In this document: positions 56,097 through 59,233 of the stretch, piece by piece
Position numbering within the stretch: position 1 is the stretch's first letter
How the letters are laid out: every line of letters starts with the position of its first letter
NCBI GenBank assembly: GCA_001788095.1
Contig: MFZX01000029.1
Coordinates: forward strand, 4,620-68,619
Reading direction: 5' to 3'
DNA from: Candidatus Roizmanbacteria bacterium RIFCSPHIGHO2_12_FULL_37_23
Lineage (GTDB): Bacteria; Patescibacteriota; Microgenomatia; UBA1406; HO2-37-13b
DNA length: 64,000 nucleotides
Made by a program: the position numbers and the translations under genes
The notes under the pieces: model-generated
Database searches by the model: none
Told to the model about the DNA's origin: nothing
Seen by the model: the letters and a program-made list of their open reading frames with translations, nothing else

Positions 56097-56115
56097 CCCC
56101 CGATTTTATCGGGGG
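56097..56115 (+). repeat. rRNA hairpin repeat copy 1 (CCCCCGAT TTT ATCGGGGG)
   Basis: Seen directly. 8-bp stem, TTT loop variant. Confidence 0.9.
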
Positions 56116-56171
56116 AGGATACCTGGTGAACTGAAACATCTCAGTAACCGGAGGAAAAGAAATCAAAATGT

Positions 56172-56197
56172 CTCAATTAGACGCAAGTTTAGTTGAG
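56172..56197 (+). repeat. 26-nt hairpin with GNRA loop (CTCAATTAGAC GCAA GTTTAGTTGAG), apparent insertion in 23S domain I
   Basis: 11-bp stem (2 G.U pairs). It lies between GAAATCAA and CGAGATTCC, which are contiguous in the E. coli 23S as I recall it (GAAAUCAACCGAGAUUCC). Confidence 0.6.
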
Positions 56198-56241
56198 CGA
56201 GATTCCGTCAGTAGCGGCGAGCGAAAGCGGAGGAGCCTAAA

Positions 56242-56258
56242 CCCCGATTTAATCGGGG
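56242..56258 (+). repeat. rRNA hairpin repeat copy 2 (CCCCGAT TTA ATCGGGG)
   Basis: Exact 17-mer. Confidence 0.9.
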
Positions 56259-56542
56259 GGTTGCGGGAGTCTGCATACCTACACTTTTTTTCTAGATGAA
56301 TGTCATGGAAAGGACAACCAAAGAAAGTGATAGTCTTGTAGTTAAAAGAAGAAAAGTGTAAGCGGAATTTCCCAAGTACCACGGGACACGGAAAACCTTG
56401 TGGGAAGCTAGGGCGGTCATGCTCTAAGGCTAAATACTCAAATTAACCGATAGTGAACCAGTACCGTGAGGGAATGGTGAAAAGTCCCCCGGCGAGGGGA
56501 GTGAAATAGAACCTGAAACCGCTAGCTAACAAGCAGTGAGAG

Positions 56543-56559
56543 CCCCGATTTAATCGGGG
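56543..56559 (+). repeat. rRNA hairpin repeat copy 3 (CCCCGAT TTA ATCGGGG)
   Basis: Exact 17-mer. Confidence 0.9.
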
Positions 56560-56651
56560 TAATCGCGTGCCTATTGAAGAATGAGCCAGCGAGTTTTCAA
56601 GAGCTGCTTAAGGTTAACCAATAAAAAGTTGGGTAGCCATAGCGAAAGCAA

Positions 56652-56669
56652 TCCCACCGAAAGGCGGGA
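56652..56669 (+). repeat. Second hairpin family copy 1 (TCCCACC GAAA GGCGGGA)
   Basis: 20/21 identical to 56738-56758, including the AA prefix. One A/C mismatch in the stem. Confidence 0.8.
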
Positions 56670-56739
56670 ACGTCTGAATAGGGCGTTGGTAGCTTTTGAA
56701 AGACCCGAAACTGGGTGATCTAACCATGGGCAGGGTGAA

Positions 56740-56757
56740 TCCCGCCGAAAGGCGGGA
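56740..56757 (+). repeat. Second hairpin family copy 2 (TCCCGCC GAAA GGCGGGA)
   Basis: Perfect 7-bp stem with a GAAA tetraloop. Confidence 0.8.
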
Positions 56758-57147
56758 GGAAGCCCGAACCCGTTATCGGTGAAATGATATGGGATGACCT
56801 GTGGTTAGGGGTAATATGCTAATCGAACCCAGAGATAGCTGGTTCTCCCCGAGATATATTTAGGTATAGCCTTCCTGCTCATAAAACACCTGGGGTAAAG
56901 CACTGAATAGTCCAGAGAGTCTAGTACAATTTGGATTAATCAAACTCTGAATACAGTCGTGTTTTGGCGGGAGGAGTCAGACTCACTAGGATAAGCTAGC
57001 GTGGTCGAAAGGGAAACAGCCCAGACTCCCATCTAAGGTCTCTAAATGGTTATTAAGTGGGAAAGGTAGTGAGATTTCAAAGACAGCCGGGAGGTTGGCT
57101 TAGAAGCAGCCATCCTTTAAAGAAAGCGTAACAGCTCACCGTAATAG

Positions 57148-57164
57148 CCCCGATTTAATCGGGG
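57148..57164 (+). repeat. rRNA hairpin repeat copy 4 (CCCCGAT TTA ATCGGGG)
   Basis: Exact 17-mer. Net insertion relative to the recalled E. coli segment CACUGGUCGAGUCGGCCUGCGCGGAAG. Confidence 0.9.
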
Positions 57165-57573
57165 ATGAGGTCTTGCGCCGAAAATGATCGAGGCTTAAAT
57201 AATCTACCGAAGATGGAGATGCTTGTGCTTTGCACAAGTGTGGTAGGGGAGCGTCCCGTGTACGATGAAGATCTACCGTAAGGTGGGTTGGAGTTAACGG
57301 GAGTGAGAATGCTGGCATAAGTAGCGATTCTCCCGCTGAAAATGCGGGATGCCGTATGTCCAAGGTTTCCTCAGCAACGTACATCGGCTGAGGGTTAGTC
57401 GGATCTAAGGGCTCTGCCGATAGGCGAGTCTCGATGTCCAAGCTGTTAATATTCAGCTACTCTTTATAAAGCGTTACTACTTTTATACTAACGAAATCTG
57501 ATAATCGAAGCCTTCTATATGAGGGTCTAAATGGTAAGCACCACCAATTGGTGGGACCGAGCCATGAATGCGA

Positions 57574-57590
57574 CCCCGATTTTATTGGGG
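57574..57590 (+). repeat. rRNA hairpin repeat copy 5 (CCCCGAT TTT ATTGGGG)
   Basis: Variant with a TTT loop and one G.U pair. Confidence 0.85.
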
Positions 57591-57753
57591 GAGCTCGATG
57601 CGTTAAGTTTCCGGGAAAAGGTATAAAAGGAGTTTTATAAGGATCCGTACCGCAAACCAACACAGGTGGACTGGTAGAGTATACTAAGGCAATCGAGTAA
57701 TGGTGGTTCAAGGAACTCGGCAAATCAGCTGGACGTAACTTTGGAGATGTCCT

Positions 57754-57770
57754 TCCCGCCTTTGGCGGGA
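57754..57770 (+). repeat. Second hairpin family copy 3 (TCCCGCC TTT GGCGGGA)
   Basis: Same 7-bp stem as 56740-56757 with a different loop. Confidence 0.7.
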
Positions 57771-58225
57771 CACAGCAAATGATTTCCATCTAACTGTTTA
57801 CCAAAAACACAGCTCCCTGCAAACCGGAAACGGGAAGTATAGGGGGTGAGGCCTGTCCAGTGCCGGTAAGTTAAGGATCGGGGTTAATCCCGATATCACG
57901 AAAGTAATATCGGGAAAGGCTCTGATTCAAGCTCCGGTGAACGACAGCTCTAACTCTGAGAGTTCTAAGGTAGCGTAGTCCCTTGTCGGGTAAGTTCCGA
58001 CCTGCATGAATGGCGTAATAAGATGGAAACTGTCTTGAACCATTGCTCGGCGAAATTGAAATGGCTGTGAAGATGCGGCCTTCCTGCACCAGGACAAGAA
58101 GACCCCGGGAGCTTTACTGAAGCTTATTATTGACAAGAAATTATTAACTGTCTAGCGTAGGAGGGAGTTTTGGCAGCAATGCCGGACACCAATGAAACAC
58201 CTCTCTTTGATAATTTTGAGTCTTA

Positions 58226-58242
58226 CCCCGATTTAATCGGGG
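58226..58242 (+). repeat. rRNA hairpin repeat copy 6 (CCCCGAT TTA ATCGGGG)
   Basis: Exact 17-mer. Confidence 0.9.
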
Positions 58243-58625
58243 GACAGTAGTAGGTGGTCAGTTTAACTGGGGCGGTTTCCTCCAAAAGGGTAACGGAGGA
58301 GCGCAAAGGTTGGCTTTTTCCGGATGGAAATCGGAATGTACGTGTAAACGCATAAGCCAGCTTAACTGTGAGGAATACAATCCGAGCAGATCCGAAAGGA
58401 GGCGTTAGTGATCCCCCGATCGGTTATGATTACCGGTGGGGCTTATCGGATAAAAGCTACCCCGGGGATAACAGGCTGGTCTCCCCTAAGAGTTCACATC
58501 GACGGGGAGGTTCGGCACCTTATGAGCCAAATAATTGGGGTGCCTTCAGTAGCAATACTGATAAAAAAATGTGACTTATAACGGTGGACTCCATAAATGC
58601 CCGATGATAGAATATCATCGTTATT

Positions 58626-58797
58626 ATGGACAATACCGTGGGAAGTCTAACTCGAGCTCAAAAATCTGTTATCATAGGGTCTATTCTTGGAGATGGCTAA
58701 TTTTAGAATTCGTTTTCTAAAATCTAGCTTACCAAGATTACATGATCTTATTGGTAAAAATCTTATACCTTCAATGAAGTATAAACTTGAGTTATGA
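58626..58797 (+). pseudogene. Decayed LAGLIDADG homing endonuclease ORF
   Basis: ATG at 58626 gives MDNTVGSLTRAQKSVIIGSILGDG then a stop. A +1 shift continues NFRIRFLKSSLPRLHDLIGKNLIPSMKYKLEL then a stop. Only the first LAGLIDADG motif region survives. Confidence 0.55.
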
Positions 58798-58811
58798 CCC
58801 CGTAGAGACTT

Positions 58812-58828
58812 CTCCGATTTAATCGGGG
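58812..58828 (+). repeat. rRNA hairpin repeat copy 7 (CTCCGAT TTA ATCGGGG), inside the intron
   Basis: Variant with CTCC on the 5' strand (one G.U pair). It lies just downstream of the endonuclease remnant. Confidence 0.85.
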
Positions 58829-59216
58829 AGAGTTCAATAAAAAATTGAGCTAATACGTCACCCCCAGATTTCAGATATCTGGGTGAAGATATAGTCCGCG
58901 CCATTAGTAATAATGGATTATCATGCGATGTCGGCTCATCGCATCCTGGGGCCGTAGCAGGTCCCAAGGGTTGGTCTGTTCGCCCATTAAAGCGGTACGC
59001 GAGCTGGGTTCAGAACGTCGTGAGACAGTTCGGACTCTATCCGGTGCAGGCGTTTGGATTCTTGAAAAGGCTCTTCTCTAGTACGAGAGGACCGAGAAGA
59101 GGGAATCCCTGGTGTATCAGTTGTCCTATAAGGGCATTGCTGAGTAGCTATATTCCTATGAGATAAGTACTGAAAGCATCTCAAGTACGAAGCTTACTTT
59201 AAGATGAGGAATCCAC

Positions 59217-59233
59217 CCCCGATTTAATCGGGG
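59217..59233 (+). repeat. rRNA hairpin repeat copy 8 (CCCCGAT TTA ATCGGGG)
   Basis: Exact 17-mer near the 23S 3' end. Confidence 0.9.

What the first reader, a model, noticed from the sequence alone, without database searches (positions are those of the whole stretch)
56097..59233. One identical 17-nt hairpin (CCCCGAU-UUA-AUCGGGG) recurs eight times within a single 23S rRNA locus
Seen directly. There are five exact copies of CCCCGATTTAATCGGGG (56242, 56543, 57148, 58226, 59217). There are also three close variants: 56097 with one extra C:G pair and a TTT loop, 57574 with a TTT loop and one G.U pair, and 58812 with CTCC. Normal rRNA helix tips do not share sequence, and a 17-mer repeated five times in 3.4 kb cannot be chance. 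In a memory-based comparison with E. coli 23S, the copies behave differently. The copy at 57148 is a net ~22-nt insertion into an otherwise continuous strand (CACUGGUCGAGUCGGCCUGCGCGG region). The copy at 56543 replaces a native helix tip. The copy at 58812 lies inside the intron next to the dead homing-endonuclease ORF, which argues against a purely ribosomal function. Two explanations fit. One is a miniature palindromic mobile element that tolerates or targets structured RNA genes, analogous to Rickettsia palindromic elements. The other is a shared binding site or stability cap that has been homogenised across helix tips. I do not know of either being described for rRNA of reduced/CPR-like bacteria.
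Basis: partly seen in the sequence, partly recalled or inferred. Interest (0 to 1): 0.85.

Follow-up and report, generated by a model that had tools for sequence, protein, structure and literature searches.

The report
Tiny palindromic cassette caps rRNA helices
One 17-base perfect hairpin caps seven surface helices of this candidate-phyla-radiation (CPR) bacterium's 23S rRNA and one stem of its intron, and in related bacteria the identical 17-mer behaves as a miniature DNA insertion, which suggests that the outer structure of these ribosomes is remodelled by copy-and-paste of hairpin cassettes.

Summary
There are five exact and three near-exact copies of CCCCGATTTAATCGGGG in one 23S gene of Candidatus Roizmanbacteria RIFCSPLOWO2_02_FULL_37_19, and six independent assemblies reproduce all eight. 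Seven copies cap length-variable helices: H10, H15, H25, a clade-specific branch on H42, H59, H79 and H98. The eighth caps a stem of a group I-like intron.

Relatives keep helices at most of these sites but with other sequences. Several relatives have their own repeated cap. The same few cap types turn up at different sites in different genomes. E. coli 23S has no internal repeat of 11 nt or more.

The identical 17-mer is enriched in CPR genomes. There, 19 of 121 copies carry an exact 4-bp direct repeat, against 0.5 expected. In one genome it is a 21-bp in-frame insertion in leuS that the 84%-identical orthologue lacks. The window's H98 copy is a clean 17(+1)-nt gain over its closest relative and has no duplication.

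Best reading: a family of ultra-short palindromic cassettes spreads at the DNA level and survives in rRNA only at dispensable helix tips. The enzyme, the fate of the hairpins in mature rRNA, and a strict orientation bias (central U in rRNA, central A in mRNA) are unexplained. I found no prior description.

The parts
55944..59329 (+). 23S rRNA gene that hosts the repeats. It follows tRNA-Ala, precedes topA, and has no adjacent 16S or 5S.
   Evidence: RF02541, 2208.8 bits, model positions 1-2925. Synteny is shown.
56097..56115 (+). Copy 1, CCCCCGATTTTATCGGGGG (8-bp stem, UUU loop). It caps the helix at Rfam model 153-177, about E. coli 150-176 (H10 by my recollection of the helix numbering).
   Evidence: It is 8 nt shorter than the bacterial consensus helix.
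56242..56258 (+). Copy 2, exact 17-mer. It caps the helix at model 274-295 (H15, which E. coli lacks).
   Evidence: The same 17-mer occupies this site in Daviesbacteria L045, and L097 has GTCCGATTTAATCGGAC here.
56543..56559 (+). Copy 3, exact 17-mer. It caps H25 (model about 575-600, E. coli about 544).
   Evidence: L134 has CTCCGATTTAATCGGAG and L146 has TCCCGATTTATCGGGA at the same site. The Rfam consensus tip here reads cccc-uuuaaa-gggg.
57148..57164 (+). Copy 4, exact 17-mer. It caps a clade-specific extra hairpin, seen as a 20-nt insert between model positions 1152 and 1153. The site is on the 3' strand of H42, just after the GTPase-centre sequence CUCAC (E. coli about 1110).
   Evidence: Ten relatives have a hairpin here. 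L143p has the identical 17-mer, L130 has TTCCGGCTTGCCGGAA, and L127 has a 31-nt hairpin that also sits at its H15.
57574..57590 (+). Copy 5, CCCCGATTTTATTGGGG (one G.U pair, UUU loop). It caps the helix at model 1571-1588 (H59, E. coli about 1534).
58226..58242 (+). Copy 6, exact 17-mer. It caps H79 (model 2226-2249, E. coli about 2208) and is 7 nt shorter than the consensus helix.
58808..58832 (+). Copy 7, CTCCGATTTAATCGGGG inside a longer stem, ACTTCTCCGATTTAATCGGGGAGAG. It forms a peripheral stem-loop of the intron.
   Evidence: The hairpin sits at the homologous intron position in L097, where it reads as that genome's own variant, GTCCGATTTAATCGGAC.
59217..59233 (+). Copy 8, exact 17-mer. 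It caps H98 (model 2817-2833, E. coli about 2798). It is a recent gain.
   Evidence: The site is empty in L201, L202, L127, L132, L134, L139, L146, L130, L138 and L143. L201 reads GAGGAATCCTC|ATAATCCCCC. No target duplication is present.
58521..58925 (+). 405-nt insert at about E. coli 2500, group I intron-like. All relatives in the clade that cover this site lack it except L142, which shares its start.
   Evidence: Intron_gpI gives 26.2 bits, E = 1e-4, below the gathering score. Folding gives z = -7.6.
56650..56669 (+). Second cassette pair, copy a: AATCCCACCGAAAGGCGGGA. It caps a helix that only L142 and L146 share.
   Evidence: family D3, 95% identical to copy b.
56738..56757 (+). Second cassette pair, copy b: AATCCCGCCGAAAGGCGGGA. 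It caps H35 and keeps the conserved GAAA loop.
57754..57770 (+). TCCCGCCTTTGGCGGGA at H63. This is cassette type B, which is the recurrent cap in L132, L143p and L138p.
27353..27395 (+). Composite hairpin outside the rRNA, 8 nt upstream of tRNA-Val. The outer stem is ATCCTGAA/TTCAGGAT, followed by a 9-nt bulge and an inner hairpin, CTCCGATGTAATCGGAG.
   Evidence: The same outer hairpin in Daviesbacteria L013 carries the exact 17-mer plus a TGAA duplication.
31210..31252 (+). A second copy of the same composite hairpin, inside the family-2 glycosyltransferase (GT2) ORF 30940-31731, where it reads ...SSDVIGVQD...
   Evidence: The protein has exactly 7 extra residues relative to its closest homologue, P0122, in a variable loop.

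Best explanation
The eight hairpins are copies of an ultra-short perfect palindrome, CCCCGATT-T-AATCGGGG (17 bp). It is one of a small family of such cassettes found in Microgenomates and wider Patescibacteria genomes. The cassettes spread at the DNA level, by insertion and/or short-tract copying.

In rRNA genes, copies survive only at the apical ends of surface-exposed, length-variable helices and in a peripheral intron stem. There the cassette replaces or extends the native tip. It is transcribed as a compact cap with a 7-bp stem and a UUA triloop (about -10 kcal/mol). Lineage-specific bursts give each genome its own recurrent cap.

Shown: the repeat itself; its helix-tip positions; genome-specific repeated tips in relatives; the same cap types at different sites in different genomes; a filled/empty pair at H98; and, in another genome, a 21-bp insertion of the identical 17-mer with a 4-bp target duplication in leuS.

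Inferred: that the rRNA copies arose by the same process as the leuS insertion, since they carry no duplication; that the hairpins are retained in mature rRNA; and that they are neutral or mildly stabilising. The enzyme is unknown.
For: (1) Copy-and-paste within genes. Exact internal repeats of 11 nt or more are absent from E. coli 23S. They occur at 7 sites in the window, as 3 pairs in L127 (including a 27-nt exact match inside a 31-nt hairpin that sits at both H15 and the H42 branch), at 3-4 sites in L130, at 3 in the L097 23S and as 2 pairs in L143p.
(2) Fast turnover of tips. L132 and L130 are 89% identical overall but have different caps at H25, the H42 branch and H79: CCCGCC..GGCGGG versus TTCCGGCTTGCCGGAA.
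(3) Shared cap types at different sites. Type A occurs at H15 (L045, L097), H25 (L134), the H42 branch (L143p), H98 (Amesbacteria L015), H68 (L097) and in 16S (L097, L081).
(4) Insertion in protein genes. 19 of 121 genome hits have an exact 4-nt direct repeat, against 0.5 expected, and only one has a 5-nt repeat. None of 37 hits to control palindromes has one. The leuS filled site reads TCAG-17mer-TCAG, and the empty site in the 84%-identical orthologue reads TCAA. An 8-aa gap in ileS of the same metagenome-assembled genome (MAG) falls at the same kind of insertion.
(5) Nesting in the loops of other hairpins (L013, L065, L073) and in the window's own composite hairpins.
(6) H98 is filled in the window and empty in the closest relatives.
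(7) CPR enrichment. At least 45 of the first 120 genome hits are labelled CPR.
Against: No rRNA copy carries the 4-bp duplication. The H98 filled/empty comparison shows a clean 17(+1)-nt gain. Most rRNA helices are not lengthened, so tips were replaced rather than extended. This fits copying better than transposition.

All 17 rRNA copies with the core CGATTTAATCG, in 7 genomes, have the same orientation. Random insertion would not give that. No transposase-like or REP-associated tyrosine transposase (RAYT)-like domain was found among about 50 window ORFs. Within this window no exact copy lies outside the rRNA gene.

The 17-mer is not globally over-represented. In viral contigs it gave 14 hits, against 24, 4 and 9 for composition-matched control palindromes. 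Type A-like tips at H25 in three lineages, together with the Rfam consensus, allow a native origin for the sequence.
Confidence: 0.58

Rival explanations
1. This is purely intragenic or intragenomic homogenisation with no mobile element. A native tip, most likely that of H25, is copied onto other helix tips. The mechanism would be short-tract gene conversion or microhomology-mediated template switching between hairpin-forming sequences that share CCCC/GGGG closing pairs.
For: Tips are replaced and not lengthened. No rRNA copy has a target duplication. The orientation is uniform, 17 of 17, which copying between co-oriented sites gives automatically. L127's 31-nt hairpin sits at both H15 and the H42 branch. 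The 20-nt H35 tip is copied 88 nt upstream in the window. Type A-like tips occur at H25 in the window, L134 and L146, and the consensus tip reads cccc-uuuaaa-gggg.
Against: This does not explain the identical 17-mer at different sites in very distant lineages. The L097 23S is only about 67% identical to the window's, which is no closer than E. coli. It also does not explain the copies with 4-bp duplications in aminoacyl-tRNA synthetase genes (leuS, ileS), or the variants in a tRNA leader and a GT2 ORF of this window.
Confidence: 0.22
2. The hairpin is a functional RNA motif. It would be a shared recognition site for a ribosome-associated protein, processing factor or chaperone, or a preferred stability cap. 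Selection would keep it identical at many tips, and DNA-level spread would be secondary.
For: The sequence is exactly conserved in distant CPR lineages. The central base is strictly biased: U in all 17 rRNA copies and A in all 11 copies inside long ORFs. Both forms have the same predicted stability, -9.9 kcal/mol. At H35 the conserved GAAA loop is kept while the stem follows the genome's own cap type.
Against: Close relatives use quite different caps at the same sites, and some (L134, L139, L142, L146) have no repeated cap at all. No single motif is therefore required. The sites are scattered over the subunit surface. The same sequence is tolerated in leuS and ileS reading frames. No candidate binding protein was identified.
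Confidence: 0.12
3. This is an assembly or sequencing artefact, such as a collapsed repeat or an adapter-like sequence.
For: None was found. The possibility is raised only because identical 17-mers in an rRNA gene are unusual.
Against: Six independent assemblies from different samples and pipelines agree base for base. The copies sit in register with the rRNA secondary structure. Related genomes from other studies show the same phenomenon.
Confidence: 0.01

Closest known systems
Rickettsia palindromic elements (RPEs)
   Same: They are palindromic, hairpin-forming repeats. They insert in frame into intact protein genes and also occur in RNA genes. They are found in reduced genomes.
   Different: RPEs are roughly 100-150 bp and confined to Rickettsia (my knowledge; summarised in PMC3733652). 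This cassette is 17 bp and is a perfect palindrome. It is concentrated at rRNA helix tips and is found across CPR lineages.
REP/BIME elements mobilised by RAYT transposases
   Same: They form small G+C-rich stem-loops with stems of 6-13 bp and loops of 2-4 nt, are often transcribed, and come in genome-specific families (PMC3733652).
   Different: REPs carry a GTAG or CGTC tag at one end, are mostly extragenic, occur in hundreds of copies, and are not known to create target duplications. No such tag flanks these copies. Copies outside the rRNA gene are rare in this window. A 4-bp duplication is seen at many non-rRNA copies.
Bacterial miniature inverted-repeat transposable elements (MITEs), e.g. 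Correia/NEMIS and the Coxiella MITEs (PMC5896051)
   Same: They have terminal inverted repeats and a target-site duplication, lack coding capacity, fold as RNA hairpins, and sometimes insert in frame into genes.
   Different: MITEs are 50-300 bp or longer, with 15-30-bp terminal repeats. Here the whole element is a 17-bp palindrome, and the rRNA copies lack duplications.
23S rRNA intervening sequences (IVS) at H25 and H45 in Salmonella, Leptospira, Campylobacter and Coxiella
   Same: They are extra or replaced sequence at the tips of variable 23S helices, and H25 is one of the sites.
   Different: IVSs are about 90 nt or longer and form extended stems that RNase III excises, which fragments the rRNA (my knowledge). 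These are 7-bp hairpins, too short for RNase III, and they are repeated at many sites.
Co-evolution of 'cryptically simple' expansion segments in eukaryotic 28S rRNA (Hancock and Dover 1988, recalled from memory and not checked)
   Same: Different variable regions of one rRNA share sequence motifs within a species and differ between species. That implies a homogenising DNA-level process.
   Different: The eukaryotic case involves long, slippage-generated simple sequence in multicopy rDNA arrays. Here discrete perfect hairpins are exchanged in what appears to be a single-copy bacterial gene.

Membership tests
Rickettsia palindromic elements (RPE) | Palindromic repeat able to fold into a stable hairpin | tested here: met
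   7-bp stem with a 3-nt loop, -9.9 kcal/mol.
Rickettsia palindromic elements (RPE) | Length of about 100-150 bp and sequence similarity to an RPE family | tested here: not met
   The unit is 17 bp. The window's composite copies are 43 nt.
Rickettsia palindromic elements (RPE) | In-frame insertion into protein genes that stay intact | tested here: met
   The identical 17-mer plus 4 bp gives a 7-codon insertion in leuS of L059, absent from 13 homologues. In the window's GT2 ORF the evidence is suggestive only: 7 extra residues in a variable loop.
REP / RAYT | GTAG or CGTC tetranucleotide tag at one end of the stem-loop (PMC3733652) | tested here: not met
   The flanks of the eight copies share no tag.
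REP / RAYT | High-copy, mainly extragenic distribution | tested here: not met
   There are no exact and 2 variant copies in about 60 kb outside the rRNA gene, against 8 inside 3.4 kb. Only 64 kb of the genome was seen.
REP / RAYT | A cognate RAYT (IS200/IS605-like Y1 transposase) gene in the genome | tested here: inconclusive
   No transposase domain was found among about 50 window ORFs or in the annotated flank. The rest of the genome was not available.
MITE | Target-site duplication of fixed length | tested here: inconclusive
   An exact 4-bp duplication flanks 19 of 121 non-rRNA copies and the leuS filled/empty pair. It is absent from all rRNA copies, including the H98 filled/empty pair.
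MITE | Size of 50-500 bp with distinct terminal inverted repeats derived from a parent insertion sequence | tested here: not met
   The element is a 17-bp palindrome. No parent element was identified, and none was systematically searched for.
23S intervening sequence (IVS) | Located at the tip of H25 or H45 | tested here: met
   Copy 3 is at H25. The other copies are at other helices.
23S intervening sequence (IVS) | A long extended stem excised by RNase III, giving fragmented 23S | tested here: not met
   The stems are 7-8 bp. Fragmentation itself cannot be tested without RNA data.
Group I intron (for the host of copy 7) | Match to the catalytic core model above the gathering score | tested here: inconclusive
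   Intron_gpI gives 26.2 bits against a gathering score of 50, E = 1e-4. The conserved GAAGAUAUAGUC core is present, and all relatives that cover the site except L142 lack the 405 nt.

The most novel reading that the evidence does not exclude
CPR bacteria harbour an unrecognised class of ultra-small (15-17 bp) palindromic 'hairpin cassettes'. They insert into DNA with a 4-bp duplication, and 17 + 4 = 21 bp is always in frame. They are also copied onto hairpin tips, so the peripheral architecture of CPR rRNAs (16S, 23S and introns) evolves by cassette exchange rather than by point substitution. The strict central-base bias (U in rRNA, A in mRNA) would then mean that the RNA form is recognised by a cellular factor, which would give the cassette a function in ribosome biogenesis or stability.
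Probability: 0.35. Interest if true: 0.88.

Novelty: new variant of a known kind. Interest (0 to 1): 0.76.

Why it matters
Variable rRNA helices are usually thought to drift by substitutions and small indels under pairing constraints. Here whole helix tips are swapped for a standard cassette, and the cassette is shared with insertions in essential protein genes.

If confirmed, this would have four consequences:
- It adds a new, extremely small kind of repeat to the bacterial mobilome.
- It explains part of the unusual rRNA architecture of CPR bacteria.
- It warns that variable regions of CPR 16S and 23S can be homoplasious for phylogeny and probe design.
- It gives a tractable system (filled and empty sites, orientation bias) for asking how hairpin DNA is copied in genomes with minimal repair machinery.

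Tried and rejected
**Artefact.** Rejected, because six independent assemblies agree.

**Global over-representation of the 17-mer.** Rejected. Viral contigs give 14 hits, against 24, 4 and 9 for three composition-matched palindromes. Most non-CPR genome hits are therefore ordinary terminators or chance, and only the CPR enrichment and the 4-bp flanks are special.

**REP membership.** Rejected, because the copies have no GTAG or CGTC tag.

**IVS / RNase III substrate.** Rejected, because the stems are too short.

**DNA-uptake-sequence idea.** Rejected, because the density outside the rRNA gene is far too low (2-3 per 60 kb).

**Target duplications at rRNA copies.** Looked for and not found. The AGCG flanks of one L097 16S copy look to me like native 16S sequence flanking helix h6 (for the flanks; the native reading rests on recalled 16S sequences and was not tested).

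**Matrix of 12-mers shared at non-homologous sites.** Too noisy to use, because genomes with large inserts were misaligned.

**Pfam on the two short ORF remnants in the intron.** Found nothing, so the dead-endonuclease claim stays unverified.

**Terminator scan at the tRNA-Val leader copy.** No call.

**Pfam scan of about 50 window ORFs.** No transposase found.

**Literature.** No paper holds the sequence. The CPR ribosome paper (PMC9297842) contains none of the words hairpin, palindrom-, H25 or H42, and its rRNA-insertion passages concern long insertion sequences of 100 nt or more.

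
Full report
**Observation**

The window holds five exact copies of CCCCGATTTAATCGGGG at 56242, 56543, 57148, 58226 and 59217. None of 100 dinucleotide-preserving shuffles of the window contained a single copy. Three close variants lie at 56097/56098, 57574 and 58812. All eight are on the + strand inside a bacterial 23S rRNA gene at 55944-59329.

The downstream topA gene is 100% identical to that of Candidatus Roizmanbacteria bacterium RIFCSPLOWO2_02_FULL_37_19, a member of the Microgenomates within the candidate phyla radiation (CPR). Six independent assemblies of this population carry a 99.94-100% identical 23S with all eight copies. The repeat is real.

**Where the copies sit**

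I aligned the gene to the Rfam LSU covariance model piece by piece and to E. coli rrlH with MAFFT. The helix numbers below come from my recollection of the E. coli secondary structure. The model and E. coli coordinates are tool results.

| Copy | Window position | Rfam model position | Helix |
|---|---|---|---|
| 1 | 56098 | 153-177 | H10 |
| 2 | 56242 | 274-295 | H15 |
| 3 | 56543 | about 575-600 | H25 |
| 4 | 57148 | 20-nt insert between 1152 and 1153 | extra hairpin on the 3' strand of H42, just after the GTPase-centre sequence |
| 5 | 57574 | 1571-1588 | H59 |
| 6 | 58226 | 2226-2249 | H79 |
| 8 | 59217 | 2817-2833 | H98 |

Copy 7 (58812) lies in a 405-nt insert at about E. coli 2500. All relatives in the clade that cover this site lack the insert except L142, which shares its start. 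It gives a sub-threshold group I intron match. These are the classical length-variable, surface-exposed helices. Several of the capped helices are shorter than the bacterial consensus, so the cassette replaces the native tip rather than extending it.

A second pair, AATCCC(A/G)CCGAAAGGCGGGA, occurs at 56650 and 56738.

**Relatives**

Synteny (ATP synthase, tRNA-Ala, 23S, topA) let me fetch orthologous 23S genes through topA homologues. A metagenome scan for the clade-specific H42-branch flank added more. Overall 23S identities to the window are 79-82%.

Relatives have helices at the same sites, apart from H98, but with other sequences. Several relatives repeat their own cap:
- L130 has TTCCGGCTT(T)GCCGGAA at H25, the H42 branch, a site near E. 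coli position 1173 and H79.
- L132 has CCCGCC-N3-GGCGGG at H10, H25 and H63, and a related TTCCGCCTTAAGGCGGAA at H79.
- L127 has CCGACGTTACGTCGG at H10 and H63. It also has one 31-nt hairpin at both H15 and the H42 branch.
- L143p has two repeated pairs.
- L134, L139, L142 and L146 have no repeated cap.

E. coli 23S has no internal repeat of 11 nt or more and only two perfect hairpins with stems of 6 bp or more.

L132 and L130 are 89% identical yet differ in cap type at three sites, so turnover is fast. The same few types recur at different sites in different genomes. For example, the window's exact 17-mer is at the H42 branch of L143p, at H15 of a Daviesbacteria genome (L045) and at H98 of an Amesbacteria genome (L015). 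A one-pair variant is at H25 of L134.

A very distant lineage, L097, has eight type-A hairpins in one rRNA operon. Its 23S is about 67% identical to the window's. It is labelled Pseudomonadales, yet its 23S is only 66% identical to E. coli's. Four hairpins are in 16S, three in 23S, and one is in an intron homologous to the window's, at the same intron position.

**Behaviour outside rRNA**

The raw count is not remarkable. About 70 hits are expected by chance in that collection (my estimate from its size and a uniform base composition). In viral contigs the 17-mer is no commoner than three composition-matched control palindromes. However, at least 45 of the 120 loci are labelled CPR.

Of 121 copies, 19 are flanked by an exact 4-nt direct repeat, mostly TTGA/TCAA or CTGA/TCAG. 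That compares with 0.5 expected, and only one copy has a 5-nt repeat. None of 37 control-palindrome hits has such a repeat.

Eleven copies lie inside long ORFs. In leuS of Patescibacteria MAG H51-bin048_1 the element adds exactly seven residues (PRLNRGQ) that 13 homologues lack, including an 84%-identical one. At the DNA level the filled site reads TCAG-CCCCGATTAAATCGGGG-TCAG, and the empty orthologous site reads TCAA. That is a 21-bp insertion with a 4-bp target duplication. The ileS gene of the same MAG has a matching insertion-sized gap when compared with the window's ileS.

Copies are also nested in the loops of other hairpins (L013, L065, L073).

In the window, two 43-nt composite hairpins have an outer stem ATCCTGAA/TTCAGGAT and an inner hairpin CTCCGATGTAATCGGAG. 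One lies upstream of tRNA-Val. The other is inside a family-2 glycosyltransferase (GT2) ORF, which has exactly seven extra residues relative to its closest homologue. The same outer hairpin in Daviesbacteria L013 carries the exact 17-mer plus a TGAA duplication.

**A filled/empty pair in rRNA**

The closest relative I could reach is L201, whose topA is 75% identical and whose flanking rRNA is 85% identical. Its H98 site is empty: GAGGAATCCTC|ATAATCCCCC. The window reads GAGGAATCCAC[17-mer]ATAAATCCCCC. Copy 8 is therefore a recent, clean gain of 17(+1) nt with no duplication.

**Interpretation**

The data exclude an artefact and exclude ordinary covarying native helices. They show DNA-level copy-and-paste of whole hairpin cassettes, with lineage-specific bursts.

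My best reading (confidence 0.58) is that the eight hairpins belong to a family of ultra-short palindromic cassettes that can insert into DNA. Insertion is shown in leuS elsewhere. In rRNA the cassettes persist only at dispensable helix tips.

The main rival (0.22) is purely intragenic conversion or template switching from a native tip, most likely H25, where type A-like tips occur in three lineages. It explains why rRNA copies lack duplications, are not lengthened and all have the same orientation. It does not explain the duplication-flanked copies in protein genes or the cross-lineage sharing of the sequence. The two mechanisms may coexist.

A functional-motif reading (0.12) draws on one unexplained fact. 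All 17 rRNA copies with this core, in seven genomes, have a central U. All 11 copies in long ORFs have a central A in the mRNA. Both forms have the same predicted stability.

**Limits**

No transposase-like gene was found in the 64-kb window. The enzyme, the fate of the hairpins in mature rRNA and the origin of the orientation bias remain open.

**Novelty**

No paper in the searchable library contains the sequence. The main comparative study of CPR rRNAs does not contain the words hairpin or palindrome, and its rRNA-insertion passages concern long insertion sequences of 100 nt or more. The nearest known kinds are RPEs, REPs and MITEs, the 23S intervening sequences, and the co-evolving eukaryotic expansion segments. 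The cassette fails at least one defining feature of each, on size, end tag, copy distribution or RNase III substrate length. I therefore file it as a new variant of small palindromic repeats and not as a member of any of them.

Noticed in passing
Window copies versus L004, L019, L022, L037, L059, L061, L073, L091, L101, L104 and L107: The palindrome's central base is strand-biased. It is U in all 17 rRNA copies across 7 genomes, and A in the mRNA of all 11 copies inside long ORFs. Both forms have the same predicted hairpin energy.
   Followed up: partly
L127:7375-7510: One relative has an AT-rich extension of about 100 nt at the tip of H25, the classical intervening-sequence site. The window has the 17-mer at this position.
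   Followed up: no
L097 (CAZPUR010000002.1), with L008, L016, L025, L039, L040, L044, L049, L053, L056, L067, L103 and L108: A MAG labelled 'uncultured Pseudomonadales' has a 23S only 66% identical to E. coli's and carries CPR-style hairpins and an intron. Many low-GC (36-45%) MAGs labelled 'uncultured Gammaproteobacteria' that carry the 17-mer may be mislabelled in the same way.
   Followed up: partly
L002, L005, L021, L075, L102, L116 and viral L161: In Nitrospirota, Methylomirabilis and similar genomes the 17-mer sits between fixed flanks, gtcatt...aatccag. This looks like a different widespread repeat family whose hairpin module happens to match.
   Followed up: no
L019, L020, L106 (one Magasanikbacteria MAG); L040, L053, L103: Longer palindromic repeats of about 70 nt occur in several copies per genome and carry the 17-mer exactly at their tip.
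   Followed up: no
Window 55799-59513; L135, L136: The 23S gene sits alone with tRNA-Ala between the ATP synthase operon and topA, with no 16S or 5S nearby. In other Roizmanbacteria (L135, L136) atpC abuts topA with no rRNA gene between them.
   Followed up: partly
L202:181-693; L134 and L142 at about E. coli 2607: Relatives carry other 23S inserts at different sites. One of them has an intact LAGLIDADG_1 ORF. The window's insert has only two short ORF remnants (58626-58697 and 58702-58794) with no Pfam match.
   Followed up: partly
Window 37492-39258: There is a family X (Pol beta-like) DNA polymerase gene. I note it because short gap filling is what would create a 4-bp duplication, but no link is shown.
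   Followed up: no
L153 and L162 (IMGVR_UViG_3300025015_000021, 93.9 kb): One viral contig holds two exact copies of the 17-mer. One of them has a TTGA direct repeat, so it may be a phage of a CPR host that carries the cassette.
   Followed up: no
Window 27353-27402: The composite hairpin upstream of tRNA-Val is followed by seven T's and ends 8 nt before the mature tRNA 5' end. This is an odd place for a terminator-like structure, and the consensus terminator scan did not call it.
   Followed up: partly
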